Assembly: GCA_030618975.1 (NCBI GenBank) | Contig: JAUXCH010000001.1 | Coordinates: 1 to 40,374 of the forward strand | Length of the DNA: 40,374 bases | From: Planctomycetia bacterium | Lineage (GTDB): Bacteria; Planctomycetota; PLA2; JAEUHO01 | Direction: 5' to 3' | Shown here: in pieces, positions 19,646-38,206 of the stretch | Position numbering within the stretch: the stretch's first letter is position 1 | Layout: every line of letters starts with the position of its first letter | Notes under the pieces: generated by a model | The model's database searches: none | Seen by the model: only the letters and a program-made list of their open reading frames with translations | Told to the model about the DNA's origin: nothing | Position numbers and translations under genes: made by a program

Positions 19646-22279
19646 GTGTTCCCGGAGGGCCACAGCCACCTGGACGCGGAGCTGAAGGCCATTCGGCGCG
19701 GCGCGGCCAGCATCACCCTCGGCGGCGAGGTCGGCGCCGGGTTCGAGCTCGGTCTCCGGGTCGTGCCGCTCGGGCTCCACTACGAACCCAAGCAGCAGTT
19801 CGACGGCGAGGTCCACGTCCGGGTCGGAGAGAGCTTCGGCATCCGGGACCTGGCGGACGTACCCCGCGAGGAGGCGCTGCGCACGATCCAGGATCGGATC
19901 GCCGCGTCGCTGCGCCCCCTGGTCCTGCACCTGGACCGGGTCGACCTCGAGCCCCTGGTGCGGGGCGTCGCCGAGGTCTACGACGAGCACCAGAGGGCAT
20001 CGGCGGGGCGGCTCGAGCCGCGATCGAAGGTGGACGTCGTCCGCATGTCGGCCGCGTGCCTCAACCACTTCCTCGCCGCCGATCCGTCGGCCGTGGACCG
20101 CACGCGACGCTACCTCCGCCAGGTCCAGCGGCTCGAACGCCGCGCCGGCATCCACGGCGAGGCGGTCGAGGTGCGCTCCCGGCCGATCCGAAGCCTCCTC
20201 GCGTTCGGCGGCACGCTGCTGCTCGTCGTGCTCGGCTTCCCCGCGTACCTCCTGGGAATCCTGACCGGCTACCTGCCCTACCGCCTGACCGACACGGTGG
20301 CCCGCGCCGTGGCGAAGCGCCGGAAGAAGACGACGCTGCCCCGACTGCGCATCGTCACGGGTGCCGTCGTGTTCCCCGTGACGTGGGGCGTCATGACGCT
20401 CTGCGTCTGGCTCTGGTCCCGGTCTCCCGGTTTCACGCTCTTCAGCCTGGTCGCGATCGTCGCCTCGGGACTGTTCGCGAGGATCTACGCGGAGCGCGTG
20501 CGGTTCCGGTGGGTACGGCTCGCGGGTCTTCTACCGATTCGCAAGCCGGGCATGCGCCGGGTGGCGCACGCCCGCCGACGCCTGCTCGAGCTGGTGGACG
20601 AGCTCGTCCAGCGGTACCGGACCGAGACGGGGATCCGACTGCTCCCCCCGCGGCGCACTTCCTGGACCTCCCGCGTGCCGTGGCGAAGGACCGCTGCGAT
20701 CATCCTGACCGGCCTGATCGTGTGGTTCGCGTTCGGGTTTCGCGACGCAAGACTCCGCGAGCTCCCGGATCGGCCGTCGCCCTGGGCCACCCTCGACACC
20801 GCGCGCGCCACGACGACGCTCGAACGCGACGCGCAGGAGCTGGTCTCGCTGCTCGACACGCTGGATCGACTCGAGACCGGGATGTACGAGCTGAAGAAGG
20901 GGTTCGACGCGGGGGAGCGCGACTTCACGGACGTGGCGGACGACCGCGCCATCCGCCGAGCGCTGCTCACCTACCTGTCGTGCCGCAGCGCGCTGTTCCG
21001 CCTCGCCTGGTTCTACCGGGCGCCCGACCGCCCAGACGAGTCCGAGCTCAGCGTGAGGGCCTTCGTGCTGGGGTACACGGCCGGCCTCGAGCTGTGTCGG
21101 CGCGGCCTGCAGCTGGTCTCGGTCTTCGACGGATGCCCCAACGCCATCCGCAAGCTCAACGAAGGCGATGCGGCGTGGTCCCTGCCCGCGAAGACGTACG
21201 ACCGGGTGCGGCAAAACCTCGCCAGCACCGACGTCTACGACGAGCTGGCCGTGGCCACGGCGCGCTACGAGCGCCTGGGGACCGAGCAGCCCCGGCCGAC
21301 GAGGGAACCCTGGGTCCGCATCTGGAACGAGGCGGACGAAGGCCGGGCCGTCGTGAAGAAGCTGTCTGACGAGCGGTGGACGCTCAAGTGGGACGCCGCC
21401 GTCGCGCGCGCGGAGGGCACCGCCGAGGAGGCCCGCTACGCGGCCAATAAACTCGTCGCGGGCCTCATCGGCGGGGTACGGATCCGCGAGGGGGAGCTGT
21501 CGGAAGGCCTCATCAGCGACGCGCAGGTCGAGTGGCTGCGCGAGGAGCACCTCGAGCCCGGCGACATCCTGCTCGAGCGCCGCAACTGGGCCCTGTCCAA
21601 CGTCTTCCTCCCGGGGTTCTGGACGCATGCCGCGGTCTACGTGGGAGGGCTCGACGGCGTACGCGCGTTGGGCATCCAGGACGACGAGCGCGTACAACCC
21701 GTCCTCGAGGCGCTCGCTCGACCGGACGAGCACGGCGCCACCCCCCGGATCGTCGAGGCGCTCGCTCCGGGCGTCATCCTGAGTTCCCTGGAGGAGTCCG
21801 TGGGCAGCGCGGATGCCGTGTGCGTGCTGCGGCCGAAGCTCGAGCCGGACGTGCTCGCCGACGCCGTGGCGCACGCCCTGAAGCACCACGGGAAACCGTA
21901 CGACTTCGACTTCGACTTCTTCTCGTCCGACCGCCTCGTCTGCACCGAGCTCGTGTACCGGGCCTTCCAGGGGCCGATCGATTTCGAGCTCCAGCACATC
22001 CTGGGGCGCCGGACGCTGCCGGCCCTCGGGATCCTGAGGAAGTGGGCCGCGGAACGGACCCACCCCGAGGCGCAGCTCGAGCTCGTCTGCTTCCTGGACT
22101 CGGACGAGGCCGCCGGCGTGGCGCGTCCGGGCACGGAGACGGAGTTGCTGGGCACCCTCGACCGACCCGCCCTCACCGTGCTCCAGGCGCACGGAGGTAG
22201 CTCCCGGATGCCACTCGCCGCCCTCGTCACCCTCGCCGTCCTCTTCCTCGCCGCGCTCCTCTTCCTCCGCCGGCGCTGA
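19646..22279 (+). CDS. N-terminally truncated PlsC-family acyltransferase fused to a TM region and a C-terminal YiiX/YaeF permuted papain-like (C92) domain
   Basis: The ORF opens (GTG 19646) exactly at acyltransferase block III (FPEGHSH), with an in-frame TAG at 19628. Followed by LGLHYEP, then TM helices (LLAFGGTLLLVVLGFPAYLLGILTG; VVFPVTWGVMTLCVWLW). C-terminus: PGDILLERRNWALSNVF..WTHAAVYVG..IVEALAPGV..VCVLRP..GKPYDFDFDFFSSDRLVCTELVYRAF. The 877-codon frame is intact. Confidence 0.7.
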   Translation: MFPEGHSHLDAELKAIRRGAASITLGGEVGAGFELGLRVVPLGLHYEPKQQFDGEVHVRVGESFGIRDLADVPREEALRTIQDRIAASLRPLVLHLDRVDLEPLVRGVAEVYDEHQRASAGRLEPRSKVDVVRMSAACLNHFLAADPSAVDRTRRYLRQVQRLERRAGIHGEAVEVRSRPIRSLLAFGGTLLLVVLGFPAYLLGILTGYLPYRLTDTVARAVAKRRKKTTLPRLRIVTGAVVFPVTWGVMTLCVWLWSRSPGFTLFSLVAIVASGLFARIYAERVRFRWVRLAGLLPIRKPGMRRVAHARRRLLELVDELVQRYRTETGIRLLPPRRTSWTSRVPWRRTAAIILTGLIVWFAFGFRDARLRELPDRPSPWATLDTARATTTLERDAQELVSLLDTLDRLETGMYELKKGFDAGERDFTDVADDRAIRRALLTYLSCRSALFRLAWFYRAPDRPDESELSVRAFVLGYTAGLELCRRGLQLVSVFDGCPNAIRKLNEGDAAWSLPAKTYDRVRQNLASTDVYDELAVATARYERLGTEQPRPTREPWVRIWNEADEGRAVVKKLSDERWTLKWDAAVARAEGTAEEARYAANKLVAGLIGGVRIREGELSEGLISDAQVEWLREEHLEPGDILLERRNWALSNVFLPGFWTHAAVYVGGLDGVRALGIQDDERVQPVLEALARPDEHGATPRIVEALAPGVILSSLEESVGSADAVCVLRPKLEPDVLADAVAHALKHHGKPYDFDFDFFSSDRLVCTELVYRAFQGPIDFELQHILGRRTLPALGILRKWAAERTHPEAQLELVCFLDSDEAAGVARPGTETELLGTLDRPALTVLQAHGGSSRMPLAALVTLAVLFLAALLFLRRR

Positions 22280-22314: not shown

Positions 22315-24312
22315 TCAGCGCGTGACGACGGCCAGGGGCACGGTGGCGCGCTTGAGGAACAGGATCGCGAACGCGGTCTCCACCACTTCCGCGTAGTTGC
22401 CCCGCCAGAGCCCGTCCCGACCCTGATCGTCCACGAGCCGCCGGGCGCCCGGGACATACCAGGGCTTGCCCCCGATGACCTTGCGCTGCCCGAGCACGCC
22501 GGATCGCTCGATGGCGTAGAGCGCGTAGAGCGTGTCCTTGTCGAGCTTCATGACGGCGCCGAGCGCCTGGAACGCCTCCTCGACGACCTCGCGGATCGCG
22601 CTCGCGTCCTCCTCGCCGAACTTGCCGTTCTCGAGGCAGATCAGGAGGCACGAGACACCGGCGGCCGTCATGCTGGAAGAGCCGCGGGCGGCGGGCTGGA
22701 CGGCGTAGGAGAAGCCGCCGTCCGCACACCTGTGCTCCAGGAAGTACTCCCCGATCTTCTTCCACGTCGAACGGCGGATCCGGACACCGGCCCGCGCGGC
22801 GGCGCGGAGACCCAGCACGGCGTACTGGGTGTTGGAGTTGTCGCCGTTGCCCGTGGGGTAGCCCCACAGTCCGGCGTCGAGCTGGGTCTCGAGCAGGCGG
22901 CGCGCGCAGGCCGTGATGTGACGGCGGTAGCGCTTCGCGCCCAGCGCCTCCAGCGCCATGGCGACGAGGCCCGCGTCGTACGTCGTCTCGGGGACGGGCG
23001 CCTTCTGCAGGTAGTCGAGGGCGGCCTGCATGCGCTTGTCGCGGCGGTCGAAGCCCGCTGCGTGCAGCGCGAGGACGACCAGCGCCGTCGTGCCGACCGG
23101 GTGCGACGCGTACTTCCAGGGCGGCGTCTTGCCCTGGAGCGCGAACAGGGCGGCCGCGCCGCGCTCGATCGCCAGGTCCACGAGCGCCTGATCGACGCCG
23201 TTCGCGTCGGGCGCTTTCACGGTGGCGAGGTCGAAGGCCTCTCCGTAGTTCGCCCACCAGCGCTCCCACAGGTCGATCCGCTCTCCGTACTGCTGGCCCG
23301 TGATCCGCTCCAGGGAGACCCGCGCCTCGGCGGCCAGGACACGGCGCTGCTCGCCGAGGAGGGCGATCAGCAGCGGGATCGACGCCTTCGCAGGCGCCCG
23401 CCGCGCCGCCCTCACGCCGGCCACCGCGACGTCCTCCCGCTCGTCGCGAAGCGCGCGCGAGATCGCTTCGCGTCCGCCCTCCGTGGCGGCGCCCACGGCG
23501 CCGATCGCCTCGACGAGGATCGCCGTGAGCTCGGTGTCCGCTCGTTCGAGCAGGGCGACCATGGCGGGCTCGGCCTCCGCGACCACGGCTCGCGAGGCGA
23601 TCGTGACGGCACGCACCACCTGGTCGCGACCGGCTGCCGCGATCACCTCGCCGAGAACGGCCCGGATCGGCGCGTCGCCCGCGGCGAACACCGGCAGGAT
23701 CTGGTCGCGGTCGTAGCGCCGCGCGTCGTCGTACAACCGCACGAGGATCCGGGCGGCCTGCGGCGTCTTCGCCGCGACGAGCACCGAGACGAGCGATGTC
23801 GCCCCCGTGGGAAACTGCTCGAGAAAGCGCTCGGCCTCGGGCAGGAACCGTGGGTCGCCTCGTCGGCCCAGATAGCGGACGACGTTGGCGCGCGCCCCCT
23901 GGTCTCCGCCCGCGAGCACCCGCTCGACGATCGCCTCGGGCAGCGCCTCATGACGACCGTTCGTCAGCGCGTGGAAGACCGTGGAGCGCAGACCCGAGTC
24001 GCCGTCCCGGTAGATGGCGAGCAGCCTTTCGAACACGAGAGGGAGGGGGATGCGCGCCACCTGGTGGATCGTGTTGAGCTGGATCGAGCGGTCCTCGTCC
24101 TCCTCGACCACCTGCAGGAGGAACCGCGCCGCCCGCTCCGTGTTCAGCGCCGCCAGCGCCTTCACGGTCTCGATCCGGGCGGCGTACGCTTCCTTCTTCT
24201 CGCGGGCGAAGCGCTTCTCGAGCACGTCGAAGGTGTCGGCTCCGGCGGCGTCCCCCGCCGACAGGAGCAGGAGCAGGAGGGTCGCAAGGACAGGGACGAA
24301 TCGGCGGATCAT
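22315..24312 (-). CDS. secreted HEAT-repeat / prenyltransferase-squalene-oxidase-repeat protein
   Basis: 665 aa. Signal MIRRFVPVLATLLLLLLSAGDAAGA. N-terminal Armadillo/HEAT-like helices. C-terminal alpha/alpha-toroid-type repeats (GTTALVVLALHAAG, TYDAGLVAMALEALG, NSNTQYAVLGLRAAARAG, DGGFSY, SSSMTAAGVSCLLIC, DGLWRG..ETAFAILFL). Confidence 0.8.
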   Translation of the reverse strand: MIRRFVPVLATLLLLLLSAGDAAGADTFDVLEKRFAREKKEAYAARIETVKALAALNTERAARFLLQVVEEDEDRSIQLNTIHQVARIPLPLVFERLLAIYRDGDSGLRSTVFHALTNGRHEALPEAIVERVLAGGDQGARANVVRYLGRRGDPRFLPEAERFLEQFPTGATSLVSVLVAAKTPQAARILVRLYDDARRYDRDQILPVFAAGDAPIRAVLGEVIAAAGRDQVVRAVTIASRAVVAEAEPAMVALLERADTELTAILVEAIGAVGAATEGGREAISRALRDEREDVAVAGVRAARRAPAKASIPLLIALLGEQRRVLAAEARVSLERITGQQYGERIDLWERWWANYGEAFDLATVKAPDANGVDQALVDLAIERGAAALFALQGKTPPWKYASHPVGTTALVVLALHAAGFDRRDKRMQAALDYLQKAPVPETTYDAGLVAMALEALGAKRYRRHITACARRLLETQLDAGLWGYPTGNGDNSNTQYAVLGLRAAARAGVRIRRSTWKKIGEYFLEHRCADGGFSYAVQPAARGSSSMTAAGVSCLLICLENGKFGEEDASAIREVVEEAFQALGAVMKLDKDTLYALYAIERSGVLGQRKVIGGKPWYVPGARRLVDDQGRDGLWRGNYAEVVETAFAILFLKRATVPLAVVTR

Positions 24313-25996: not shown

Positions 25997-26719
25997 ATGG
26001 GACGCATCTTCGAGAAGCGCAAGACCACGATGTTCGCGCGCTGGGACCGCATCTCGAAGCAGTTCTCGCGGATCTCCAAGGACATCATGATCGCGGTCAA
26101 GAACGGCGGTCCCAGCCTGGACGCCAACCCGGCGCTCAGGCGCCTCATCCAGAACGCGCGCGCGGCCAACATGCCGAAGGACAAGGTGGAGTACGCGATC
26201 CGCCGCGCGTCCGGCCAGGAGGCCGTGGACTACGAGGAGGTCCTCTACGAGGGGTACGCGCCGCACGGCATCGCGGTCCTCGTCGAGACGGCGACCGACA
26301 ACCCGACGCGCACCGTCGCGAACGTCCGGTCGCTCTTCAAGTCGGCCGGCGGAAAACTGGGCAACGTCGGGAGCGTCTCGTTCCAGTTCCAGCGAATGGG
26401 CGTCTTCCGGCTCGCAGCCGAGGGAATCGACGCCGACGAGCTCGAGCTCGATCTCATCGACCACGGCCTGGAAGAGATGCTCGCAGGCGAGGGCGACGAG
26501 GGCGAAGCGCAGCTCGTCGTGCGCTGCGGCTTCGTGGAGCTCGGCAACCTGCAACGCGCGCTCGAGGAGCGAGGCATCAAGCCGGTGTCCGCCGGGACCG
26601 AGTACGTCTGCCTAAACCCCGTCGAGCTGCCCGAGGAGCAGGAGCGCAGCGTCCTCGAGCTGATCGACGCGATCGAGCAGGACGAGGACGTCCAGCGCGT
26701 CTTTCACTCGCTCGCCTGA
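25997..26719 (+). CDS. yebC: YebC/PmpR-family DNA-binding transcriptional regulator
   Basis: 240 aa. [89 protein letters not shown] 5 nt upstream. Confidence 0.95.
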
Positions 26720-26754: not shown

Positions 26755-29388
26755 CTAGTCCGGGAGCCCCCAGAGGACCCAGGCAGCCCAGTAGTGCGGA
26801 TGGGACCACTTCTCCGTCTTGCGGAGATGGTCCTGCGCCGCTCGGAGCGCTTCCGCCGCGCCCACCGCGTCGGCGGGCTCCTCGGGATTGAACGCTTCGT
26901 AGAACTTCTTCATGAACGCCTGCGTGGCCTCGTCGTCGACCTTCCACAGGCTGGCGACCACGCGCGGGGCGCCGGCGTAGAGGAACGCGCTGGCAAGCCC
27001 CGTCAGCCCCTCGCCCGCCAACGTCTTCCCGAGCCCCGTGTCGCACGCCGACAGCACCGCGAGGTCCGTCGGGATCCGCATGCCCAGGATCTCGATGACG
27101 GACAGGAACCCGTCGTCGCGCTCGCCCGGCGTGAGGGCGAGGGACGACCAGGCCGGCTGCTTCTCGTCGAGGAGGCCGTGGCACGCGAAGTGGACGGAGC
27201 GCCAGCGCTCCCGGCTGGGGAGCGCGCGGCCGAAGGCCCCCTCCGTGGCGTCGGGTCCCAGGAGACGCACGTCCGTCTTCCGCGTGATCGCAAGGGCCTC
27301 TTCGCGCGTGTACTCGAGCGGAGACAGCGAGGTGCCGCGCGCGCCCGGAACCAGTCCGCCGACGACGCCCGCATAGACGGGATCGGCCACGGCGAGGACG
27401 CCTTCGCCCCGGGCCTGCCCCACCTCCTGCAGCAGGCCGTAGGCGGTTGCCGAGGGAACGAACACGACCTCGCGCTCGCCGGCGATCCAGGAGAACGGCA
27501 CGGCCGCCAGGACGTCCACGGGGCTGACGAGCAGGCGCGTCACGGAGTCGGGCAGCTCGAGCCGGCCGATCAGCGCCGTGGACAGGGGATCGGCGGCGGG
27601 CAGGTCGCCGGCCTTCCCCATCGCGTCGCGCACCTCCTGGATCAGGGACCCGATCTCCTCGATGCCGCCCAACGTGGGCTTCCGGGTCGTCGTCTTCTCG
27701 ATGACGAAGGCGCGGAGGTCGTCACCGACGACGGAGTAGAGGACCAACGCATCCTCCGGACCCAGCAACTCCTTCTGGACGATGGCCAGGGGAAACGCGT
27801 CCGCGCCCCCCCGCCCCCCCCGCAGCATCGCGCCCGGCGATGCCCGCTGTCGTCGGCCGAGCTGGTCCAGGTACGCGACCCGAGCTTCCCGGTACTCCTT
27901 CTCCGCGGGAACGACGAGGGTGAACGCACCGTCCTCACTGGCGGCCTGCCTGCGGCAGAGTGCCGCGGCAACCCGCTCCCGGGCGCTCTCCAGCTCGGGA
28001 TCGGCAGGTGTCGGCGCGGCGACGGTCCGGCCGATCCCGGCCGTGAGCGTCGCCGCGCGCGTGCGGTCGAGGAGGTCGAGGCACGGGGCGGGATCGACCA
28101 GGTCGAACGCGATCCGTCCCGCCAGCGCCAGCGGATAGGCGTGGTGCGCACGCGTCGAAGCCCGGCTCAGCGGCGAGAGCCCCGTGGTCATCTGCGCCAG
28201 GGCATCGAGGGACTCCCGCATCAGCTGCCAGGCCTTCTCCGTCCGGCCCCGGCGCTGGTGCTCCACGGCCAGGAGCGCCGCGGCATGCGCGACCTCCCCC
28301 AGGTCGCCACGCGCGTCCGCCTCCCGATGACACGCCTGGAGCCGCTCCAGTCCCGCGTCGTAGCGCTCCAATCGAAGCAGCGAGCGGCCGATCGCGCGCT
28401 CGATGCTCAGGTACAGGGAAGCGTGGATGCCGGCCAGGCCCCGGGCCTCCTCGAACTGTGCGAGAGCCTGCTCGTGCTCTCCGTCCCGGCTACGTTCCAT
28501 GGCGTCCAGGTAGATCACGTTCGCCGTCGCCAGCTTCTCCCCCGCCTTCTCGAACAGGGTGCACGCCGCGTCGAAGGCCTCCCGCGCCTGGGCTCCCTCC
28601 CCTTCGCGAGACGCGAGGGATCCCAGACTCGTGAGGAGGTCCGCGCGGAGCACGGCGTCCTCCTCCCCCACGAGTCGCAGCCCCTTCTCGATGCACTCGC
28701 GCCCCCGCTCGTACTCGCCCAGGCGCACGTAGGTTTCACCGAGGATCTGGAGGGCCGATGCCAGGTTCCCGAGATCTCCGGACTCGCGGAAGTACCGCCG
28801 CGCCAGCTCCCCCGCCTCCAGCGCCGCGGCATACTGCCCGCGTGCGCGTTGTGTCAACGCGACGCGCAGGTGGACGTCCGCTGCGAGCTCGGGCTTGTCG
28901 CCCACCATCGAGCGGGCCTCTTCCAGGTAGATCAGCGCCTGGTGGGTGTCGCCCAGCTGCATCTCGAAGTAGCCGAGGTCGAGCAGCGTGTCGAAGACGT
29001 CCTCGGCCAGGTCCGTAGCGCGCGCGACCTCGAGCATGTGGAGGCTCGTGTTGCGCAGGCCGAGGTAGTCGTAGCAGGCGTGCAGGCACTCGATCCGTCC
29101 CGCGATGGAGGCCTTCACGTAGTTCGGGTCGAGCCGCTTCTCGACGGCGAAGCTCTCGGCCTCGCCGTAGGCCGCCATGGCGTCGTCGTACTTCCGGGCC
29201 TCCTGGAGGGTCGTGGCCTGCTCGAAGAGTCGCCACCAGCCGTCCTCGGGGCCGGCATCGTCGCCCTGTGCCGGGTTCACGGCCAGGCACAGGGCACAGG
29301 CAAGCAGGACGACGGTCCATGCGTGCCGCACGGGACGGCTCCGGGCCCCGCGACGGCGCGGGGTGGAGCGATGAACGACGTCGGTCAC
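26755..29388 (-). CDS. signal-anchored TPR-repeat CHAT-domain (caspase-like) protease
   Basis: 877 aa. GTG 29388-29386 with GAGGGG SD. Leader RHAWTVVLLACALCLAVNPAQG. About 400 aa of TPR-like repeats. C-terminal CHAT with the His/Cys dyad context (SVHFACHGLLD .. LAVLSACDTGLGK .. APRVVASLWKVDD .. HPHYWAAWVLWG). Confidence 0.9.
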   Translation of the reverse strand: MTDVVHRSTPRRRGARSRPVRHAWTVVLLACALCLAVNPAQGDDAGPEDGWWRLFEQATTLQEARKYDDAMAAYGEAESFAVEKRLDPNYVKASIAGRIECLHACYDYLGLRNTSLHMLEVARATDLAEDVFDTLLDLGYFEMQLGDTHQALIYLEEARSMVGDKPELAADVHLRVALTQRARGQYAAALEAGELARRYFRESGDLGNLASALQILGETYVRLGEYERGRECIEKGLRLVGEEDAVLRADLLTSLGSLASREGEGAQAREAFDAACTLFEKAGEKLATANVIYLDAMERSRDGEHEQALAQFEEARGLAGIHASLYLSIERAIGRSLLRLERYDAGLERLQACHREADARGDLGEVAHAAALLAVEHQRRGRTEKAWQLMRESLDALAQMTTGLSPLSRASTRAHHAYPLALAGRIAFDLVDPAPCLDLLDRTRAATLTAGIGRTVAAPTPADPELESARERVAAALCRRQAASEDGAFTLVVPAEKEYREARVAYLDQLGRRQRASPGAMLRGGRGGADAFPLAIVQKELLGPEDALVLYSVVGDDLRAFVIEKTTTRKPTLGGIEEIGSLIQEVRDAMGKAGDLPAADPLSTALIGRLELPDSVTRLLVSPVDVLAAVPFSWIAGEREVVFVPSATAYGLLQEVGQARGEGVLAVADPVYAGVVGGLVPGARGTSLSPLEYTREEALAITRKTDVRLLGPDATEGAFGRALPSRERWRSVHFACHGLLDEKQPAWSSLALTPGERDDGFLSVIEILGMRIPTDLAVLSACDTGLGKTLAGEGLTGLASAFLYAGAPRVVASLWKVDDEATQAFMKKFYEAFNPEEPADAVGAAEALRAAQDHLRKTEKWSHPHYWAAWVLWGLPD

Positions 29389-29415
29389 GACGTTCCCCTC
29401 TCGGATCGCCGGGTC

Positions 29416-30006
29416 TCAGGGCTGGAACTCGAGGACGACCTCGTACGCGGAACCGTCCTCCTTCGGCTGTACGGTCACGATCATCAGGTCGATCGGGGTC
29501 ATGGGGTCCGTCCGCACCACGGCCTCGTGCACGAACTCGACAGGGTCTTGGAGACTCGCGTCCTCGCACAACTCCGCCGTGACCCGGATCGCGTACAAGG
29601 GGAGGGGGTAGGGGACGGGCGGCACGAGGATGCAGAACCCCTCGGGAGGAAGCCCCAGCCCGTACACCTGTGGGTCCCCGAAGTTCGTGCCCGGGTCCGC
29701 CTGCGTGTCGATCGTCAGGCGCTTCAAGAACTTCTTCGTCTTGTTCTTCACCTCCGTGTGACCGATCTGGTTGTCGCGGACCGGCTCGGGTTCGCTCTTG
29801 AAAGCGAGGATCGACTTCACCTTCAGGGCCACGCAGAGCAACGCCGCGAGCACGTAGCCGACGGCCAGTTCGATACAGCACCTGCCGTGGGCCATCCAGC
29901 AGATGATCACCACGCCCAGCCCGGCGATCACGAGGATCACCACGTCCATCCACTCGAAGGAGCGTCGCGCGTCGCGCGGCACCTGCTGCTTCCGTCCGTT
30001 CCCCAT
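29416..30006 (-). CDS. uncharacterised two-TM protein with ~125-aa C-terminal soluble domain
   Basis: ATG 30006-30004 preceded by AGGAGG. MGNGRKQQVPRDARRSFEWMD, TM1 VVILVIAGLGVVIICWMA, TM2 IELAVGYVLAALLCVALKV, then a Lys-rich linker and a Pro-rich beta-like domain. 27 nt upstream of the CHAT gene on the same strand. Lower GC than the flanks. No family recognised. Confidence 0.7.
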   Translation of the reverse strand: MGNGRKQQVPRDARRSFEWMDVVILVIAGLGVVIICWMAHGRCCIELAVGYVLAALLCVALKVKSILAFKSEPEPVRDNQIGHTEVKNKTKKFLKRLTIDTQADPGTNFGDPQVYGLGLPPEGFCILVPPVPYPLPLYAIRVTAELCEDASLQDPVEFVHEAVVRTDPMTPIDLMIVTVQPKEDGSAYEVVLEFQP

Positions 30007-30166
30007 CGCACCCTCCTGATCCGTCGGGCTCCGAGGCGGTTGGAACCCGGATCGACCTTGTCGGAATGGTAAGCGGGCGCGGCCTGCGCCTGTTACACCC
30101 AATTGTGAAGGAGTGCGCACCCGGACTCTCGATGCGGCACCGGTGCACTCGCCACCTACGCGATGC

Positions 30167-31666: not shown

Positions 31667-32695
31667 CTACTGGAGCGTGAAGTGGATCTCGACCTTCTCG
31701 ATGCCGTTCTCCTCGTCGCCTGCGACGACGAGCACGCCCTTCTCGCGGGCACCGAGGAGCTTCTCGAAGGGCACGTAGAGAACGCCGACGGGATCCGCCA
31801 GGACGACGTCCTTGTCGACGACCGTGACGAGCAGACCGTCGCCGATCCCCGCGCGACCGTTCACCTGCAGGCCCACGTCCTTCCAGTTCAGCTCGAAGGC
31901 GTCGACCTGCCCCTCCTTCGCCTTCGTTCCGCCGCCGAGCCAGTCGAGAGTGACCTCCAGGTCGGGTCGGACCACCTCGAGTCCCTCCAGCTCCTTGGGG
32001 AACGGGATCTTCGGGAAGCGGCGCTTGAGCGGGTTGCCGCCGGCGTCCCAGTCGCCGCCGGCCGGGCGTTGCTCGCGCGCCACGAGCTTCAGCTCCCGGA
32101 TGCGCAGACCGAGCTTCGGCCCGGCGCCCTCCGCGCCGGGATTACGGACCACGACGGTGAGGTCGTGGAGCCCCCCCGAACCCTCCAGCACGTGCGGACC
32201 GGGGTGCGAGACGAGGGCCTTGGCGTCGCCCAACGCCTTGCCGATCTCGTCGTCGTCCTTCAGGTCGTCGTCGACGACCCGGAAGGTCAGCACGTTCGGG
32301 AGCTGGTCGTTCGGCGGCAGGGGGACCTCGAGCGCCCACGCGGGGAGGAACGTCCCCTGGACGGCTCCCGACCGGCCGAGCTCCACCTCCCCCGCGAGCA
32401 CGACCACGTAGGGATCCGGGCGGTTCCGGTAGGGCACCATGGAGAGGATCGAGAGCGGCGGGAAGCCCGTGACGCCACCGACGGCCTGGTAGACGAGCAG
32501 CGGGATCTTCCGGTGATCCGCGTCCCACGTCTTGCCCTTCGGCTTCAGGGGGTGGACGCGCGCGCCGAGCACGTGGAGACTCGCGCCCTGGCCCTCGCGA
32601 GCGAAGGACACCGGCGGGGCGACGGTGACGGTGACGAGCGCGAGGAGGGTCGCGGCGGCGAGCGGCCACGCGAGGCGACGGACGGAGCGGGTCAT
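31667..32695 (-). CDS. secreted protein with two C2-like (Asp-rich beta-sandwich) modules
   Basis: ATG 32695-32693, 342 aa. Signal MTRSVRRLAWPLAAATLLALVTVTVAPP. TFRVVDDDLKDDDEIGKA and LLVTVVDKDVVLADPVGVLYVPF resemble C2-domain Ca/lipid-binding loops. The domain call is tentative. Confidence 0.7.
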   Translation of the reverse strand: MTRSVRRLAWPLAAATLLALVTVTVAPPVSFAREGQGASLHVLGARVHPLKPKGKTWDADHRKIPLLVYQAVGGVTGFPPLSILSMVPYRNRPDPYVVVLAGEVELGRSGAVQGTFLPAWALEVPLPPNDQLPNVLTFRVVDDDLKDDDEIGKALGDAKALVSHPGPHVLEGSGGLHDLTVVVRNPGAEGAGPKLGLRIRELKLVAREQRPAGGDWDAGGNPLKRRFPKIPFPKELEGLEVVRPDLEVTLDWLGGGTKAKEGQVDAFELNWKDVGLQVNGRAGIGDGLLVTVVDKDVVLADPVGVLYVPFEKLLGAREKGVLVVAGDEENGIEKVEIHFTLQ

Positions 32696-32803: not shown

Positions 32804-34471
32804 ATGCGTCGGCAATCCCTCCTCGTGCTGCTGGTCGTCTGTCTCGTGACGATCGGCGGGTGGTTGCTCCTCCGAGGGGACGGCGGGCACGGGGGGCCGG
32901 ATCCTCTGCCGCGCGACGGAGACGAAGGGACCGCGGCCGAGCTCCCCCAGGCGTCGGGCGACGTCCCCCCGGCGTCCCTCGCGGGCACCTCGGGTGCCGA
33001 GGCGCCGGCCGCCGATCCGGGCACGGTCGGCGACGTCCGTGTGCGCGTGGTGGGCCGGGGCGGGGTGCCCGTCCCCGACGCCCCGGTCCACGTGGTCGGT
33101 CCGCAGGGCGCTGTGCCACACGTCCTGTTCGCGAACGCACACGGCGAGACGACGGTCCCGGACCTACCGCTCGACGGCAGCTTCTCCGTCGTGACATTCC
33201 GCTTCGTCGACGCCGGCCTGCACCTGGCCGACCGTGTGCCGGTGAGGAGCCCGGAGACGATCCTGCGCACGAACTTCGGGCTGCCGTGCGAGGTCGTCGT
33301 GACCGATGCGGAGACCGGCCGCCCGCTCGCCAACGCGGCCTGGTCGCTGTACCCGAAGAAGCTGCTCGTCGACGGCGAACCCCTTCCGCTGCGCAGAGGA
33401 GCGCGACCGATCATCGCGCAGCCGGGGCGGGACCTCACCTACCGACTCGCGGTGGACGTGCCCGCGGGCTACGTCGCGTGGGCGAACCGCGCTCCCTACG
33501 CGGAAATCTCCCGCTACGCGACGGCGCTTGGCTACGTCTACCCGCTCCACCGCGAGGCCGACGTCACGATCGACGTGCTCGAGCACGACGGCTCGCCGGC
33601 CCGCGAGCCCTGGGTCACGCATTGGTCGGTGGCCGGCAAGGAAGGGGCGACGCGGTTCGGCGGCGGCGATACGGAGCCGCTGGCGCTGAACCGCCTGCGC
33701 CTCCGCGGCGTGCCCTACGTGGCCGGCGCCGTGCTCGGCGTGACGATCGCGCTGGAGGACCCGGCCGACGACCGGAACGTCGAGGCCACCGTGCGGCTCG
33801 CCCGGCCCACCCGCCTCGTGGTCCATCTCCCCCACCCCGATGAGTACAAACTGTCCGACGTACCTTTCCCGATGCAGGGCGAGAGCGTGATCGGCGTCGA
33901 AGGGGGCACGGAGGACCTGCCGCCGACGCCTCCCGCGGGCATGCTGGACCTCCAAGCCACACTCCGAGACGGACACCCGGCCGCCGAGGCGACGGTGAGC
34001 TTCCGCTACCTGGAGGAAGGGTACGCCCTGCGAGGCTTTCGCGAGTCGCTCGACGACGAGGGCCGGCGGATGCAGGATCTACCCGCAGGCACGTGGCGCG
34101 TGCTCTTCCACGAGCCGGGGCTCGTCCAGACCGGGGTGACCTTCGAGGTCCAGGCCGGCGAGTCGACGCGCGTCCGGCTCCAGGAGGGCCGAGGCGGCAC
34201 GGTCCGCCTGCGGGTGGTCGATCCGGCCGGACGGCCGCTTTCGTTCGCCAGGTTCCGGGTCAGCGACCGGATGTGGCGCGACCTGGAGGACGGGGTCCAG
34301 CGGCTCGACCCCCACGTGGACGAGAGCGGGAGCCGCACGCTACGCCACGTTTCGTCGGGCTTGGATCTCGAGGTGACCGCCTGGTACGCGGGAGGTCTTG
34401 CGACCGAGGACGTCACGGTGGGCGAAGGCGAGGCGGTCGACGTGACGGTGGAGGTGGCACCCGCGAAGTAG
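32804..34471 (+). CDS. membrane-anchored protein with carboxypeptidase-regulatory-like (Ig-like) beta domains
   Basis: 555 aa. N-terminal TM (SLLVLLVVCLVTIGGWLLL). Repeated patterns such as VRVRVVGRGGVPVPDAPVHVV and VRLRVVDPAGRPLSFARFRV. No catalytic motif seen. Confidence 0.7.
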   Translation: MRRQSLLVLLVVCLVTIGGWLLLRGDGGHGGPDPLPRDGDEGTAAELPQASGDVPPASLAGTSGAEAPAADPGTVGDVRVRVVGRGGVPVPDAPVHVVGPQGAVPHVLFANAHGETTVPDLPLDGSFSVVTFRFVDAGLHLADRVPVRSPETILRTNFGLPCEVVVTDAETGRPLANAAWSLYPKKLLVDGEPLPLRRGARPIIAQPGRDLTYRLAVDVPAGYVAWANRAPYAEISRYATALGYVYPLHREADVTIDVLEHDGSPAREPWVTHWSVAGKEGATRFGGGDTEPLALNRLRLRGVPYVAGAVLGVTIALEDPADDRNVEATVRLARPTRLVVHLPHPDEYKLSDVPFPMQGESVIGVEGGTEDLPPTPPAGMLDLQATLRDGHPAAEATVSFRYLEEGYALRGFRESLDDEGRRMQDLPAGTWRVLFHEPGLVQTGVTFEVQAGESTRVRLQEGRGGTVRLRVVDPAGRPLSFARFRVSDRMWRDLEDGVQRLDPHVDESGSRTLRHVSSGLDLEVTAWYAGGLATEDVTVGEGEAVDVTVEVAPAK

Positions 34472-35350: not shown

Positions 35351-37786
35351 TCAGTTCCCGAGACGGACGTCTTCGAAGCGCGCGACCGCCGACTTGGCCA
35401 TCACGCCCACGCGCCCGGCGAGCTCCTCTTGCGGATAGGCGCGTGTCTCGACCCGTCTTCCGTCCACGAAGAACCGCACGGTTCCGCGATCGACCTCCAC
35501 CGCGAGGCGGACGCCGTCCTCTTCGTGGTCCTGGTAGCGACCCCGATAGCGGTTCATGGGCCAGTCCTCGATGATGCGGTTGACCTCGACCCGGCCCCGG
35601 TCGGTCAGGACGAACACGTCCCAGACCCCGTCGCCGGCGTGGCCGAACAGGATGCCAGCGTACGTGTTCGAGCTCGGCTCCGTGAGGTGCACGGTGGCCT
35701 CGAAGCGGTAGCGCGGACCCGGCTCCTCGCGCATCACGTTCTCCAGCATCTCCTCGGTGGTGATCGTGAGCGCGCCCTCCTCTGCGCCCCACGGACCCAG
35801 GGGATGCCACGCGCGGAATCGGGTCGTGATCGGCACGCGGCGCCAGCGCCAGGTCTCGACCTGCTTCTCGTCGGCGATCCGCGCGCGCTCCTTCGCAAGC
35901 GTCCCGTCCCCTCCGAGAATCAAGATGGCCGTGTCCAACGACCACAGCGCGTTGCGGGGATACCCCGCCGCGACGTAGGCCTGTGCGGCCTCCGTGATCT
36001 GGGTCACGAAGTCCTGGTGGATCGCGGTCTCGGCGGGCAGCAACGTCTTCTCGAGCTTGTCGATTCCCGCCCGGCACTTCTCGGCCACCTCGTCCGGCCG
36101 CATGTCCAGACCGCGTACGTTCTCGTCCCTCTCATTCGTTTCTGCCATCTGCGCGAGCAGTCGGCGCAGGCGGTAGAGCGCCGCGTCCTTCTCCTTGCGC
36201 TTCACGTGCAGCGCGGCCAGGTCGAAGAGCGCCGCGGGATCTCCGCGGCGCTTGTCGAGCGCCCACCGGTAGCTCTCGAGCGCCGCCTCCGTCCTCCCGG
36301 CCTTGCGCTGCCGGCGCGCCCTCTCCAGCAGGTCGTCCGCCTTCTCCGAGCCACCCTGGACGAGGAGGTGGAGTTCGTCGATCCACGTCTTGAAGCGGCG
36401 GACCAGGGAGTCGAACGAGTCGAGCCCCTCCTCCTTCGGGCGTTCGACGAAGTACTCCACGAAGCGGGCGAACGAATCGTGCTTCCCCGTCGACTTGTAC
36501 GACTTCAGGTACGCATCGAAGTGGGGGGCGTAGACGCGTTCCGACTTCTCGTTCTCGTAGTTCTTGAAGAAGTACGTGAGGCCCCAGCCGACGCAGTAGT
36601 ACTCGGCCGGATAGGAGCCGGGCTCGGAGTAGGAGACGACGTCTCGCACCGTCGGGTCGCCGTCGTTCAGGGTCTGCTGGAGGTTCGTGAGACGTCCCTT
36701 GTTGGGCAGGTTGGGCACCACCCTCCCGCCGGCCAGGATGCGTGCGGACTCGAAGTACGTGGCCAGGCCCTCGTTCAGCCAACTGGGAATCGTGCTTCGA
36801 CACACCAGGTGGGTGAACTGGTGCGAGGTCTCGTGGAACAGCGTCTCGTAGAGCTCGCGCAGCGTCCCGCCGTCCGCCCGCGGGTCGAAGGCCGCCACGC
36901 GGTTCTGGCCCGGGAAGTAGAGGCCGAGGGCCGAGGAGTTCCCCGTGTGCTCGATGAACTCCGTGCGCGAGCGGTAGACGTCGATCGTGCATCGCGACGT
37001 CTTGCCGGAGCCGCGCTTCCCCAGGTAGGTCTCCCGGTAGAAGCGGTTCATCTGTTCCATGGCGCGGGAGATGCCCGTTCCGACGCTCCACCCCACGTTC
37101 GTGTGCACGGTGTAGCTCGTGCTCTTGACGCGCCATGCGTCCCGCCAGTTCTCGTGGCCGGCGTCCTGCCGCACGCGACGCCTGTCTGCGCGGCTCGTTC
37201 GGTGGTGGATGGGAACGTCGAGGCCGGTGTCGAGAAGCGCGGCGACGCTTTTCTTGTTCGCATAGAGCTTCGCGAGCTGCTCGGCCGCCTCGGGCTCTGC
37301 CGGTGTGCCGTGGCAGCGTTCGAAGTACTCGACGGCGTTCGCGTAGAGCTTCCGCTTGGCGCACTCCACGCCGAGTTCGAAGAGCCGCCGGCTGCGTTCG
37401 GCAAGGCGGGGGCGTGCGTCGACGGGGAGGGGGTCGAGCGCTGCGACGCGCGCCACCAGATCCTCGATCTCCTCCTCGGACCGGCCTTCGGCCCGGGCCT
37501 CGTGGAGGGCGAGCCGGGCGTACCAGAGCGCTTCGTCCGCCGCACCGGCCTCCTCGGCGGCGCGGGAGGCCCGTGCGAGGAGCGTGGGGTCCGTGGGGTC
37601 CTGCAGGAGTCCGTCCTCGGCGGCCTCGAGCCGGCTTCGTGCGTCGGCGGCGGAATCGTCGTCCGGCTTCGTCTCGGCGGTCGGCGTGCCGAGGCCGAAC
37701 ACGGTCACGACGAGCAGGACGAGGAAGGCGGCGAACAGGGGGCGCGGAAGCGCGGAAGCGGGCATGGCGTAGCCTTCGTCGGACAT
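35351..37786 (-). CDS. DUF1570-type (MA-clan peptidase-like) protein with TPR-like helices and a C-terminal DUF1080/LamG-like jelly-roll
   Basis: Start ATG 37786 (MSDEGYA) or 37765 (MPASALPRPLFAAFLVLLVVTVFG, signal/anchor). FHETSHQF..SWLNEGLATYFE block. The C-terminal ~170 aa (YAGILFGHAGDG..VRFFVDGRRV..ARFEDVRLGN) is lectin/hydrolase-like. The N-terminal 120+ codons of the track ORF are rejected. Confidence 0.8.
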   Translation of the reverse strand: MSDEGYAMPASALPRPLFAAFLVLLVVTVFGLGTPTAETKPDDDSAADARSRLEAAEDGLLQDPTDPTLLARASRAAEEAGAADEALWYARLALHEARAEGRSEEEIEDLVARVAALDPLPVDARPRLAERSRRLFELGVECAKRKLYANAVEYFERCHGTPAEPEAAEQLAKLYANKKSVAALLDTGLDVPIHHRTSRADRRRVRQDAGHENWRDAWRVKSTSYTVHTNVGWSVGTGISRAMEQMNRFYRETYLGKRGSGKTSRCTIDVYRSRTEFIEHTGNSSALGLYFPGQNRVAAFDPRADGGTLRELYETLFHETSHQFTHLVCRSTIPSWLNEGLATYFESARILAGGRVVPNLPNKGRLTNLQQTLNDGDPTVRDVVSYSEPGSYPAEYYCVGWGLTYFFKNYENEKSERVYAPHFDAYLKSYKSTGKHDSFARFVEYFVERPKEEGLDSFDSLVRRFKTWIDELHLLVQGGSEKADDLLERARRQRKAGRTEAALESYRWALDKRRGDPAALFDLAALHVKRKEKDAALYRLRRLLAQMAETNERDENVRGLDMRPDEVAEKCRAGIDKLEKTLLPAETAIHQDFVTQITEAAQAYVAAGYPRNALWSLDTAILILGGDGTLAKERARIADEKQVETWRWRRVPITTRFRAWHPLGPWGAEEGALTITTEEMLENVMREEPGPRYRFEATVHLTEPSSNTYAGILFGHAGDGVWDVFVLTDRGRVEVNRIIEDWPMNRYRGRYQDHEEDGVRLAVEVDRGTVRFFVDGRRVETRAYPQEELAGRVGVMAKSAVARFEDVRLGN

Positions 37787-38206
37787 CTCGCCGAGGATAC
37801 ACGACACGCTGTGCGTGCGCGCACCCTCGGGTACGAGGGCAGGTCCGTCGAGTTCTACGTCGAGGAGCACGACACCCGTCTCCTCCACTCCGCGTTTCGC
37901 GGACAGACTCCGGACGAGATGGACCCCAGCGCCGCTGCCGGCGAACGGACCTACCGCAGGACGATGCGGACGGTGTCGGCCGGCTGCCTGAACGACACGC
38001 CCCGACGCGCCGCTCGCCCGTCGCCCGCAGTGGCCTCGAGCGTCAGGTCCAGGGGGTCGTGGAGCAGGACGCGCACGCGACCCCCGTCGTCGGTGCGAGC
38101 CGCTCTGACCCCAGTACCCTTGCCCCCTCACCCCTCTCGGCCCTTTCGGCAGCGGGGGGGTTGACACGTCGGCGCCACGCGTACCCTGGTTCGTGGAGGT
38201 ACGCCC

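What the first reader, a model, noticed from the sequence alone, without database searches (positions are those of the whole stretch)
26755..30006. Two-gene operon: uncharacterised 2-TM protein followed by a signal-anchored TPR-CHAT caspase-like protease (candidate undescribed proteolytic signalling/conflict module)
The two genes are on the same strand, 27 nt apart, each with its own strong SD (AGGAGG; GAGGGG). The upstream 196-aa protein has a basic N-terminus and two TM helices joined by a short Cys-containing loop (HGRCC). It ends in a ~125-aa Lys/Pro-rich domain with no motif I recognise, and it has lower GC than the flanks. The downstream 877-aa protein has a hydrophobic leader ending AQG, ~400 aa of TPRs and a CHAT domain with an intact His/Cys context. 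TPR-CHAT proteases are known as regulated effectors. Examples are Csx29 in type III-E CRISPR, proteases activating bacterial gasdermins, and the conflict systems of multicellular bacteria described by Aravind and colleagues. They usually cleave a neighbouring-gene product. Here there is no CRISPR, gasdermin or NTPase partner, only this membrane protein. It could be the substrate or effector (for example a pore or membrane-disrupting protein released by cleavage) or a membrane receptor. Predicted topology puts its soluble domain in the cytoplasm and the CHAT protease outside. That is odd and worth testing.
Basis: inference. Interest (0 to 1): 0.7.

Follow-up and report, generated by a model that had tools for sequence, protein, structure and literature searches.

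The report
Exported caspase-like protease with orphan membrane partner
A probable planctomycete carries a conserved two-gene unit: a very rare small membrane protein followed by an exported caspase-like (TPR-CHAT) protease, which most likely passes a signal across the inner membrane, but nothing here points to phage defence.

Summary
On the minus strand, a 196-aa gene (29416-30006) lies 27 nt upstream of an 877-aa gene (26755-29388).

- **Small gene:** it is really coding (GC3 0.92). It encodes a two-helix membrane hairpin plus a cytoplasmic, acidic, beta-rich domain. It matches no Pfam, NCBIfam or PADLOC model. Only 6 sequences in 4 clusters exist among about 15 billion proteins.
- **Large gene:** signal peptide, TPR array and CHAT domain, with the His737/Cys782 dyad invariant in a 21-sequence alignment.
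- **Pairing:** in every relative whose contig reaches the next gene (three contigs, two further lineages), that gene is the orthologous CHAT protein. The upstream gene differs. The conserved unit is the pair.
- **Export is normal:** 34 of the 40 nearest TPR-CHAT homologues have a signal-peptide-like N-terminus.
- **Homologue contexts:** five of six sampled loci sit beside ECF sigma/anti-sigma pairs or Ser/Thr kinases.

My best reading, inferred not shown, is a split DdvA-like trans-envelope proteolytic signalling module with a non-canonical membrane partner. The defence or conflict reading has no support. Verdict: new variant of a known kind, moderate interest.

The parts
29416..30006 (-). Gene for the 196-aa orphan membrane protein (two-helix hairpin plus cytoplasmic beta-rich domain)
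   Evidence: ORF. GC3 0.92 against 0.53 in the upstream extension. No Pfam, NCBIfam or PADLOC hit. Family of 6 sequences in 4 clusters among about 15 bn proteins.
30012..30017 (-). Shine-Dalgarno-like AGGAGG, 5 nt before the ATG of the small gene
   Evidence: Sequence read.
29893..29952 (-). TM1 (residues 19-38, WMDVVILVIAGLGVVIICWM), with invariant W19 and C36
   Evidence: Hydrophobic segment present in all four family members. 16/20 identical to P0105. Invariant columns. AF2 helix 12-38.
29878..29892 (-). Predicted periplasmic loop (residues 39-43, AHGRC), bracketed by invariant C36 and C44 (C-x7-C). H/R/R/K occupies one aligned loop position in the four sequences.
   Evidence: Alignment A1. 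Topology follows from the positive-inside rule: N-tail +5, juxtamembrane motif +6, loop +1. This is inference.
29818..29877 (-). TM2 (residues 44-63), with invariant C44, L47 and G50
   Evidence: AF2 helix 44-70.
29713..29763 (-). Conserved basic juxtamembrane motif GHTEVKNKTKKFLKRLT (residues 82-98). Family core: K87 N88 .. L94 . R96 L97.
   Evidence: 15/17 identical to P0105, the best-conserved segment of the protein. Invariant K87, N88, L94, R96, L97.
29419..29712 (-). C-terminal acidic, Pro-rich domain (residues 99-196), predicted all-beta and cytoplasmic. It diverges fast: 36%, 21% and 14% identity to the three relatives.
   Evidence: pLDDT about 55-68. Foldseek against PDB found nothing (best E 0.06, all TM-scores at most 0.40).
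29389..29415 (-). 27-nt intergenic spacer, with GAGGGG (29395-29400) 6 nt before the GTG of the CHAT gene
   Evidence: Equivalent spacers of 16, 16 and 31 nt in L003, L092 and L004.
26755..29388 (-). Gene for the 877-aa exported TPR-CHAT caspase-like protease
   Evidence: Pfam CHAT 9e-55 and TPR_12 8e-13. AF2 pLDDT 78.5, pTM 0.71. Foldseek top matches: Csx29 1.6e-15, separase 3e-14, DdvA 1.3e-13 with TMq 0.46.
29263..29388 (-). Signal peptide (residues 1-42): Arg-rich n-region, h-region AWTVVLLACALCLAV, c-region NPAQG, then DD
   Evidence: Hydrophobicity 3.18. The A-x-G/A site is conserved in L003 and L004, and R18-P19 upstream are conserved, which supports the long start.
27766..29241 (-). 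Helical/TPR region (residues 50-541). It begins with a clade-specific, well-conserved N-terminal segment (GWWRLF ... VKASIAGRIECLHACYDYLGLR).
   Evidence: AF2 helices. TPR hits. About 71% identity to L092 over the mature N-terminus (my count) and 49% to L004.
26767..27585 (-). CHAT domain (residues 602-874), with catalytic His737 (27178-27180) and Cys782 (27043-27045)
   Evidence: CHAT-only profile against PDB: DdvA 8rot 7.4e-10, Csx29 about 5e-9, separase 4e-4.

Best explanation
The two genes form a trans-envelope signalling pair built like a split version of DdvA.

1. The 877-aa protein is exported by a Sec signal peptide. It sits in the periplasm as a TPR-CHAT sensor and caspase-like protease.
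2. The 196-aa protein is its dedicated inner-membrane partner. It is a helical hairpin with both ends in the cytoplasm. Only a short Cys-bracketed loop (C-x7-C with a basic residue) faces the periplasm.
3. A periplasmic cue sensed by the TPR-CHAT protein changes the state of the hairpin, either by cleaving or by binding that loop and its membrane-proximal face.
4. This frees or switches the conserved basic juxtamembrane motif and the acidic cytoplasmic beta domain, which carry the output to a cytoplasmic target encoded elsewhere.

Shown: the gene structure, that the small ORF is coding, the domain identities, the intact dyad, the conserved adjacency, and the signalling contexts of homologues. 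Inferred: export, topology, physical interaction, cleavage and the nature of the output.
For: - **Adjacency:** the small gene and the CHAT gene stay adjacent, 16-31 nt apart, in all three contigs of relatives where the next gene is visible. Small-protein identity there falls to 26-28%. The upstream gene is not conserved: a SASA esterase here, the C-terminal end of a different, unidentified ORF in L004.
- **Where conservation lies:** in the small protein it is concentrated in the hairpin, the two loop-flanking Cys and the juxtamembrane motif. These are the parts that could contact a periplasmic or membrane partner. The cytoplasmic domain drifts.
- **Export:** the CHAT protein has a signal peptide with a conserved A-x-G/A site. 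34 of 40 homologues look exported.
- **Fold and catalysis:** the dyad is intact. The separase/craspase/DdvA-type fold is predicted with pTM 0.71.
- **Closest solved relative of the CHAT domain:** DdvA. Its periplasmic TPR-CHAT is proposed to act as sensor and site-1-like protease for a transmembrane regulator (PMC11506125).
- **Homologue contexts:** in L093 the order is ECF sigma, then ZAS anti-sigma with one TM, then exported TPR-CHAT, with 82- and 7-nt gaps. The P0006 locus repeats this pattern. L094 has sigma and ZAS anti-sigma two genes away. In L086 a TM Ser/Thr kinase lies immediately upstream. The syntax 'membrane-spanning regulator with a cytoplasmic domain, then exported TPR-CHAT' therefore recurs.
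Against: - The periplasmic exposure of the small protein is only about 5-7 residues. That is a poor protease substrate compared with the >100-residue periplasmic parts of anti-sigma factors.
- The small protein has no anti-sigma (HxxxCxxC) domain and no recognisable output domain. No sigma factor, kinase or transcription factor gene is adjacent among 32 window ORFs scanned.
- The AF2 model of the small protein is weak (pLDDT 59), and no fold match was found.
- Pair conservation rests on only three lineages. All of the relatives' contigs are short.
- Topology and export are rule-based inferences. No dedicated predictor was available.
- The nearest full-length CHAT homologue (P0003) has no such partner.
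Confidence: 0.4

Rival explanations
1. The small protein is only a membrane tether, assembly factor or inhibitor. It holds or silences the exported protease at the outer face of the inner membrane. The real substrates are other envelope proteins, and no signal goes to the cytoplasm.
For: The pair is conserved. Conservation is strongest in the membrane hairpin. The cytoplasmic domain evolves fast and matches nothing, as expected if it matters little. The h-region of the CHAT leader keeps L28, A30, L33 and C34 in three lineages. This could mean it stays in the membrane and packs against the hairpin.
Against: The best-conserved stretch of the small protein is the basic motif on the predicted cytoplasmic side (15/17). 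All four members keep a cytoplasmic domain of 100 or more residues. The conserved A-x-G/A site argues that the leader is cleaved.
Confidence: 0.22
2. This is a defence or cell-suicide module. The CHAT protease activates the small membrane protein as a holin-like or pore-forming effector.
For: Two-TM, N-in/C-in small membrane proteins resemble class II holins (my own knowledge, not tested). Other CHAT proteases activate neighbouring effectors, for example Csx29 acting on Csx30 (PMC10028731). DdvA controls a defence island (PMC11506125).
Against: No PADLOC hit for the small-protein family, and only a chance-level BovA match (E 0.022, 11 bits) for the CHAT protein. No relative on viral contigs. 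No defence, mobile-element or toxin genes among 32 neighbouring ORFs. GC3 is identical to the host genes. The protease and almost all of the putative substrate are predicted to lie in different compartments.
Confidence: 0.1
3. The hairpin is a periplasm-facing redox or metal sensor that uses its invariant Cys pair (with E46). It regulates the protease, so information flows from the small protein to CHAT, not the other way.
For: C36 and C44 are invariant and bracket the loop. C-[ILV]-E-L is kept in 3 of 4 sequences, and H/R/R/K occupies one aligned loop position.
Against: This rests on motif reading only, from four sequences. It offers no role for the cytoplasmic domain.
Confidence: 0.1
4. The adjacency is incidental. 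The small gene is a lineage-specific membrane protein that merely shares a transcript with an exported protease of independent function.
For: The family is tiny and confined to one narrow clade, so shared ancestry could preserve gene order without function. Nearest YebC relatives are Planctomycetota MAGs.
Against: Order and tight spacing survive to 26-28% protein identity while the upstream neighbour changes. No member of the small family was seen without the CHAT gene where this could be tested.
Confidence: 0.1

Closest known systems
[quoted passage not shown]
   Same: Both have a periplasmic separase/craspase-type TPR-CHAT with a His-Cys dyad, coupled to a membrane-spanning element that has a cytoplasmic part. 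DdvA is the best sequence-profile match of the CHAT domain in the PDB (7.4e-10). Among the top structural matches it has the highest query-normalised TM-score (0.46).
   Different: DdvA is one polypeptide: a cytoplasmic zinc anti-sigma domain, one TM, a linker and TPR-CHAT, encoded next to its ECF sigma. Here the protease is a separate protein with a probably cleaved signal peptide. The membrane partner is a two-TM hairpin with a C-terminal beta domain, no HxxxCxxC motif and no adjacent sigma gene. Overall identity is about 15%.
Three-gene operons (ECF sigma, ZAS anti-sigma, exported TPR-CHAT) seen in homologue loci L093, the P0006 locus and, rearranged, L094. My literature searches found no description of them.
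   Same: The gene order matches: a membrane-spanning regulator immediately upstream of, and tightly spaced with, a signal-peptide TPR-CHAT of the same subfamily (24-29% identity over 77-92% of the query).
   Different: Their upstream protein is a recognisable single-TM zinc anti-sigma factor with a periplasmic domain of about 130 residues and a cognate sigma. The window's partner is unrelated (no BLAST similarity), has almost no periplasmic part, and has no sigma.
Csx29 (TPR-CHAT of type III-E CRISPR craspase)
   Same: Same TPR-CHAT fold. It is the top Foldseek hit (8eey_B, 1.6e-15), and the profile match is about 5e-9. It cleaves a neighbour-encoded protein, Csx30.
   Different: Csx29 is cytoplasmic, bound to Cas7-11 and activated by RNA. 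The NCBIfam Csx29 model scores 23 bits against a cut-off of 300. There are no cas genes in the window.
HetF of Anabaena (CHAT protease acting on PatU3; PMC9457339)
   Same: A membrane-associated CHAT protease with TPRs and a specific, genetically linked substrate.
   Different: According to that paper the orientation is the opposite: CHAT in the cytoplasm, TPRs in the periplasm, one polypeptide with its own TM.

Membership tests
CHAT / clan CD caspase-like peptidases (Pfam PF12770) | Significant match to the CHAT model above the curated cut-off | tested here: met
   186.5 bits against a cut-off of 24, E 9e-55, residues 602-874 covering 7-288 of 289 profile positions.
CHAT / clan CD caspase-like peptidases (Pfam PF12770) | Catalytic His-Cys dyad in the conserved HG ... 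SAC context | tested here: met
   FACH737G and LSAC782DTG. Both columns are invariant in 21 sequences (A4) and 12 sequences (A5).
CHAT / clan CD caspase-like peptidases (Pfam PF12770) | Separase/craspase-type TPR-CHAT three-dimensional architecture | tested here: met
   AF2 pLDDT 78.5, pTM 0.71. Foldseek probability 1.00 to Csx29, separase and DdvA at E 1e-13 to 1e-15. This is a predicted model, not an experimental structure.
CHAT / clan CD caspase-like peptidases (Pfam PF12770) | Peptidase activity | not testable with these tools
   Requires biochemistry.
DdvA-type TPR-CHAT transmembrane anti-sigma factor | Periplasmic location of the TPR-CHAT module | tested here: inconclusive
   There is an N-terminal Arg-rich n-region, a 15-residue h-region and a conserved A-x-G/A site. 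This is a rule-based inference; no SignalP or experiment was available.
DdvA-type TPR-CHAT transmembrane anti-sigma factor | Cytoplasmic zinc-binding anti-sigma domain (HxxxCxxC) on the same polypeptide | tested here: not met
   The CHAT protein has only 22 residues before its h-region. Neither protein has the motif or any anti-sigma Pfam/NCBIfam hit. The motif is plainly visible in the L093 and L094 anti-sigma proteins.
DdvA-type TPR-CHAT transmembrane anti-sigma factor | Cognate ECF sigma gene adjacent | tested here: not met
   No Sigma70_r2/r4 hit in 32 window ORFs scanned. This includes every gene within about 6 kb on each side.
Type III-E CRISPR Csx29 (craspase protease) | Match to the Csx29 family model, and association with Cas7-11 or a CRISPR array | tested here: not met
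   NF041237 scores 23.3 bits against a cut-off of 300. No cas genes were found among the scanned ORFs.
Bacterial gasdermin-protease or other catalogued defence systems | Partner protein or protease matching a known defence-system model, and a defence-island context | tested here: not met
   PADLOC gives no hit for the small-protein family. For the CHAT protein it gives only a chance-level 11-bit hit. The neighbourhood is metabolic and secreted-protein genes.
Any described family for the 196-aa protein | Sequence or fold similarity to a curated family or solved structure | tested here: not met
   Pfam (also at E up to 10), NCBIfam and PADLOC: nothing for the window protein; its relatives P0106 and P0107 gave only sub-threshold, chance-level Pfam matches. 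Foldseek against PDB: best E 0.06, all TM-scores at most 0.40, on a low-confidence model. Exhaustive phmmer over 1.84 bn representatives found only 3 other clusters.

The most novel reading that the evidence does not exclude
An exported caspase-like protease signals across the inner membrane without any sigma/anti-sigma pair. It does so by cutting or gripping the tiny Cys-bracketed periplasmic loop of a dedicated two-helix hairpin protein. This releases a previously unseen cytoplasmic beta domain as the output. That would be a new class of regulated-proteolysis transducer. It would also be a minimal model for how the very numerous, uncharacterised exported TPR-CHAT proteins work.
Probability: 0.2. 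Interest if true: 0.65.

Novelty: new variant of a known kind. Interest (0 to 1): 0.45.

Why it matters
TPR-CHAT proteins are widespread, and the DdvA authors note that little is known about them (PMC11506125). In this sample most close homologues are exported. Yet DdvA was the only periplasmic TPR-CHAT my literature searches found described.

This locus and the homologue loci found alongside it suggest a general rule: an exported TPR-CHAT is encoded right after the membrane-spanning regulator it works with. That regulator is an anti-sigma factor, a Ser/Thr kinase, or here an orphan hairpin protein.

If that rule is right, the pair is a compact two-gene system. It could be used to test whether periplasmic CHAT domains are site-1-type signalling proteases, and what they sense.

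Its weight is limited. The partner family is extremely rare: 6 sequences, apparently confined to one narrow clade. Nothing functional is shown.

Tried and rejected
**Searches for more members of the pair**
- The word-index protein search with the small protein found only itself. It missed P0105, which the exhaustive search found later.
- The same tool with the CHAT N-terminal alignment A3 returned nothing, not even P0002, which contains the query. I take this as lossy indexing, not absence.
- Scans for more loci of the pair all came back empty:
  - the GTDB genomes scan with A3;
  - two hand-made degenerate DNA patterns for YDYLGLR..SL.MLEV and SIAG.I.CL.A.YDYLGLR in JGI metagenomes;
  - the IMG/VR viral contigs scan with A6.
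- The four-sequence alignment A1 was too divergent for the locus finder.

**Structure and family searches**
- Fold search with the small-protein model gave only noise.
- The full-length CHAT profile against the PDB was swamped by TPR proteins, so I repeated it with the CHAT domain alone.

**Local sequence features**
- The promoter/terminator scan and Rfam found nothing in 26.0-31.0 kb. This is uninformative at this GC content.
- I considered a lipoprotein signal in the CHAT leader (LLAC, ALCL) and rejected it. The only conserved Cys (C34) is preceded by Leu, and C31 is not conserved.
- I considered a Tat signal and rejected it. The Arg pair lies about 10 residues before the h-region.

**Context checks**
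- tblastn with ECF sigma factors from the homologue loci against the window gave no hit. The control showed these sigmas do not detect each other either, so that test is void.
- Synteny around yebC in the nearest Planctomycetota MAGs shows no CHAT or small gene. Those genomes are distant, though (70-78% YebC identity).
- dN/dS among near-identical strains had too few differences to be useful.


Full report
**1. The observation**

The two genes lie on the minus strand. The small gene runs from 30006 down to 29416: ATG start, 196 codons, AGGAGG 5 nt upstream. The large gene runs from 29388 down to 26755: GTG start, 877 codons, GAGGGG 6 nt upstream. The spacer between them is 27 nt. A YebC-family gene converges on the 3' end (25997-26719). 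A SASA-type esterase gene ends 160 nt upstream of the small gene.

The window is about 70% GC, so long spurious ORFs are everywhere. I therefore checked that the small ORF is really coding.
- Its GC content at codon positions 1, 2 and 3 is 0.64, 0.39 and 0.92. This is the same pattern as the CHAT, esterase and yebC genes.
- The in-frame GTG extension upstream drops to GC3 0.53. The ATG at 30006 is therefore the start.
It is not a sign of foreign DNA.

**2. The large protein**

- Pfam gives CHAT at 9e-55 (residues 602-874) plus TPR_12.
- In an alignment with 20 homologues, His737 (FACHG) and Cys782 (LSACDTG) are invariant.
- An AlphaFold2 model built on that alignment is usable (pLDDT 78.5, pTM 0.71).
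- Its best PDB matches are Csx29 of craspase (1.6e-15), human separase (3e-14) and the M. xanthus anti-sigma factor DdvA (1.3e-13). DdvA has the highest query-normalised TM-score among them, 0.46.
- A profile of the CHAT domain alone finds DdvA first (8ROT/8RW5, 7.4e-10), then Csx29 proteins (about 5e-9), then separases. One search confirms that these PDB codes are DdvA.

The N-terminus has an Arg-rich stretch and a 15-residue hydrophobic core, followed by NPAQG and then DD. In the two other lineages the equivalent sites are SPALG|DE and AAAVA|DD. Ala at -3 and a small residue at -1 are therefore conserved. This fits a cleaved Sec signal peptide (inference). I rejected a lipobox and a Tat motif on the same alignment.

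Conservation of R18-P19 upstream of the alternative start used for P0002 supports the 877-aa reading.

**3. Export is the rule in this subfamily**

By a simple hydrophobicity test, 34 of the 40 closest homologues have a signal-peptide-like N-terminal segment. The "odd" topology is therefore a general, unexplained property of a large group of proteins. It is not peculiar to this locus.

**4. The small protein**

It matches nothing in Pfam (also tried at E up to 10), NCBIfam or PADLOC.

An exhaustive phmmer run over 1.84 billion representatives found only three other clusters:
- P0105: 49% identity, 202 aa.
- P0106: 28% identity, 222 aa.
- P0107: 32% identity, 236 aa.

The exact-sequence look-up shows six sequences in all among about 15 billion.

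All four cluster representatives have two hydrophobic segments. The invariant residues are W19, C36, C44, L47, G50, V63, K87, N88, L94, R96, L97, P136 and a few more.

Against P0105, identity by region is as follows:

| Region | Identical residues |
|---|---|
| TM1 | 16/20 |
| TM2 | 14/20 |
| Basic motif GHTEVKNKTKKFLKRLT | 15/17 |
| C-terminal 98 residues | 35/98 |

Charges are +5 in the N-tail, +1 in the loop and +6 in the juxtamembrane motif. The positive-inside rule therefore puts both ends in the cytoplasm. Only about 5-7 residues, bracketed by the invariant Cys pair (C-x7-C), would face outward (inference).

AlphaFold2 on the four-sequence alignment gives the hairpin plus an eight-strand beta domain at low confidence (pLDDT 59). 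Foldseek finds nothing (best E 0.06).

**5. Is the pair conserved?**

Yes, wherever it can be tested.
- **L003 and L092** (the P0105/P0109 lineage): the next gene starts 16 nt after the small gene. It encodes MRVGRL...HEWVTRILIACLLCLGTSPALGDEG..GWWRLF..LDPNYVKASIAGR. By my count this is about 71% identical to the mature N-terminus of the window's CHAT protein.
- **L004** (the P0106 lineage, 26-28% small-protein identity): the next gene starts 31 nt downstream. It carries the same signature, VKVSIAGQITCLRARYDYLGLRDVSLRMLEV.
- **L005** ends 31 nt after the small gene, so it is untestable.
- **The upstream gene differs.** It is the SASA esterase in the window. In L004 it is the C-terminal end of a different ORF that I did not identify.
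- **Same-organism contigs.** Four Logan contigs, 99.5-99.95% identical to the window, repeat the window's arrangement.

The conserved unit is exactly the two genes. The nearest full-length CHAT homologue outside this clade is P0003, which is 46% identical over the C-terminal 353 residues. It has no such partner.

**6. Context**

I scanned 32 window ORFs against Pfam. They encode metabolic enzymes, secreted proteins and families of unknown function. Examples are acyl-ACP desaturase, PLP decarboxylase, aldo-keto reductase, a ferredoxin-like protein, an ion channel, a C92 peptidase, DUF1570 and LysM.
- None is a sigma factor, kinase, cas gene, NTPase, gasdermin-like gene or mobile-element gene.
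- PADLOC gives no meaningful hit.
- No relative lies on viral contigs.
- YebC is closest to Planctomycetia/Planctomycetota MAGs at 70-78% identity. Together with the DUF1570 hit, which I recall as a planctomycete family (my own knowledge), this suggests a planctomycete.

The defence or conflict framing therefore has no support from context.

**7. What the homologues' contexts say**

I could inspect six loci of related exported TPR-CHAT genes.
- **L093:** ECF sigma, then a single-TM zinc anti-sigma factor (HRHLVECGFC), then TPR-CHAT. The gaps are 82 and 7 nt.
- **The P0006 locus:** sigma, then a 275-aa protein with no Pfam hit, then TPR-CHAT.
- **L094:** a Ser/Thr kinase-TPR protein, then TPR-CHAT, a 151-aa protein, an ECF sigma and a ZAS anti-sigma (HFVTCADC).
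- **L087:** an ECF sigma two genes away.
- **L086:** a membrane Ser/Thr kinase immediately upstream and a second TPR-CHAT downstream.
- **L002:** nothing of the kind.

Five of the six loci therefore sit in envelope-signalling clusters. In three of them (L093, the P0006 locus, L086) the gene directly upstream is a confirmed or probable membrane-spanning regulator with a cytoplasmic domain. In L094 the upstream gene is a Ser/Thr kinase-TPR protein whose membrane topology I did not check.

These look like split versions of DdvA. In DdvA the anti-sigma domain, the TM helix and the periplasmic TPR-CHAT are one chain. Its CHAT is proposed to act as sensor and site-1-like protease ahead of RseP (PMC11506125). 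My literature searches found only the fused DdvA described.

**8. Best explanation**

The window's pair follows the same syntax, with a different and previously unseen membrane partner. I therefore read it as a trans-envelope proteolytic signalling pair. The exported TPR-CHAT senses a periplasmic cue and acts on the hairpin protein. The conserved juxtamembrane motif and cytoplasmic domain of the hairpin carry the output.

My confidence is 0.4, for these reasons:
- The exposed loop is very short for a protease substrate.
- No output domain or target is recognisable.
- The pairing rests on three lineages.
- Export, topology, interaction and cleavage are all inferred.

The rivals are a pure tether or inhibitor role (0.22), a holin-like effector (0.1), a Cys-loop redox or metal sensor controlling the protease (0.1), and incidental adjacency (0.1).

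**9. Comparison with known systems**

The large protein is a member of the CHAT family: model score, dyad and predicted fold are all met. It is not a DdvA-type anti-sigma factor, because it has no ZAS domain and no adjacent sigma. It is not Csx29, which scores 23 bits against a cut-off of 300 and has no cas genes nearby. It is not part of a catalogued defence system. It may still work like DdvA.

The small protein belongs to no described family.

**10. Verdict**

The signalling reading stands, the conflict reading does not, and the topology is normal for the subfamily. I class it as a new variant of a known kind. Interest is moderate (0.45). It is a clean, conserved, minimal pair that could make the function of exported TPR-CHAT proteins testable. 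But it is very rare and has no functional evidence.

Noticed in passing
L093:2409-6949; L094:1071-9192; P0006 locus (no DNA held); L087:140-5144; L086:3070-12385: Related exported TPR-CHAT genes sit in envelope-signalling clusters. L093 and the P0006 locus have ECF sigma, then a single-TM anti-sigma, then TPR-CHAT as tight operons (the HxxxCxxC zinc motif was read only in L093; the P0006 locus protein is a 275-aa no-Pfam ORF with no DNA held). L094 has sigma and ZAS anti-sigma two genes downstream and a Ser/Thr kinase-TPR upstream. L086 has a membrane Ser/Thr kinase upstream and a second TPR-CHAT downstream. These look like 'split DdvA' systems. My literature searches found only the fused DdvA described.
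   Followed up: partly
window 29263-29388 and L003/L004 equivalents: The hydrophobic core of the CHAT signal peptide keeps L28, A30, L33 and C34 across three lineages. The small protein also has invariant Cys at both membrane-periplasm boundaries. This may hint at an intramembrane contact before or without leader cleavage. Three sequences are too few to judge.
   Followed up: no
window 19646-22279 (+) and 22315-24312 (-): There is an 877-aa protein with a C-terminal permuted-papain Peptidase_C92 (YaeF/YiiX) domain. Converging on it is a 665-aa signal-peptide protein with HEAT repeats. Both are otherwise unannotated.
   Followed up: no
window 31667-32695 (-) and 32804-34471 (+): Two divergently oriented secreted proteins. 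One has a weak C2-domain hit (3e-5), which is unusual in bacteria. The other has a CarboxypepD_reg-like domain.
   Followed up: no
window 16793-19282 (-), about 17-19 kb: An 829-aa ORF with no Pfam hit lies in the lowest-GC stretch of the window (0.637-0.647, against about 0.70). Several ORFs between 12.1 and 17.4 kb also have no family hit.
   Followed up: no
window 35351-38167 (-): A large protein with a DUF1570 hit. I recall DUF1570 as a planctomycete-associated family (my own knowledge). With YebC being closest to Planctomycetia/Planctomycetota MAGs (70-78%), this suggests the window comes from an unsampled planctomycete. None of the GTDB representative genomes scanned carries the pair.
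   Followed up: partly
tool behaviour: The word-index protein search missed a 49%-identical full-length homologue (P0105) that shares several 5-mers with the query. With alignment A3 it returned nothing, although P0002 contains the query. Negative results from that tool should not be read as absence.
   Followed up: yes
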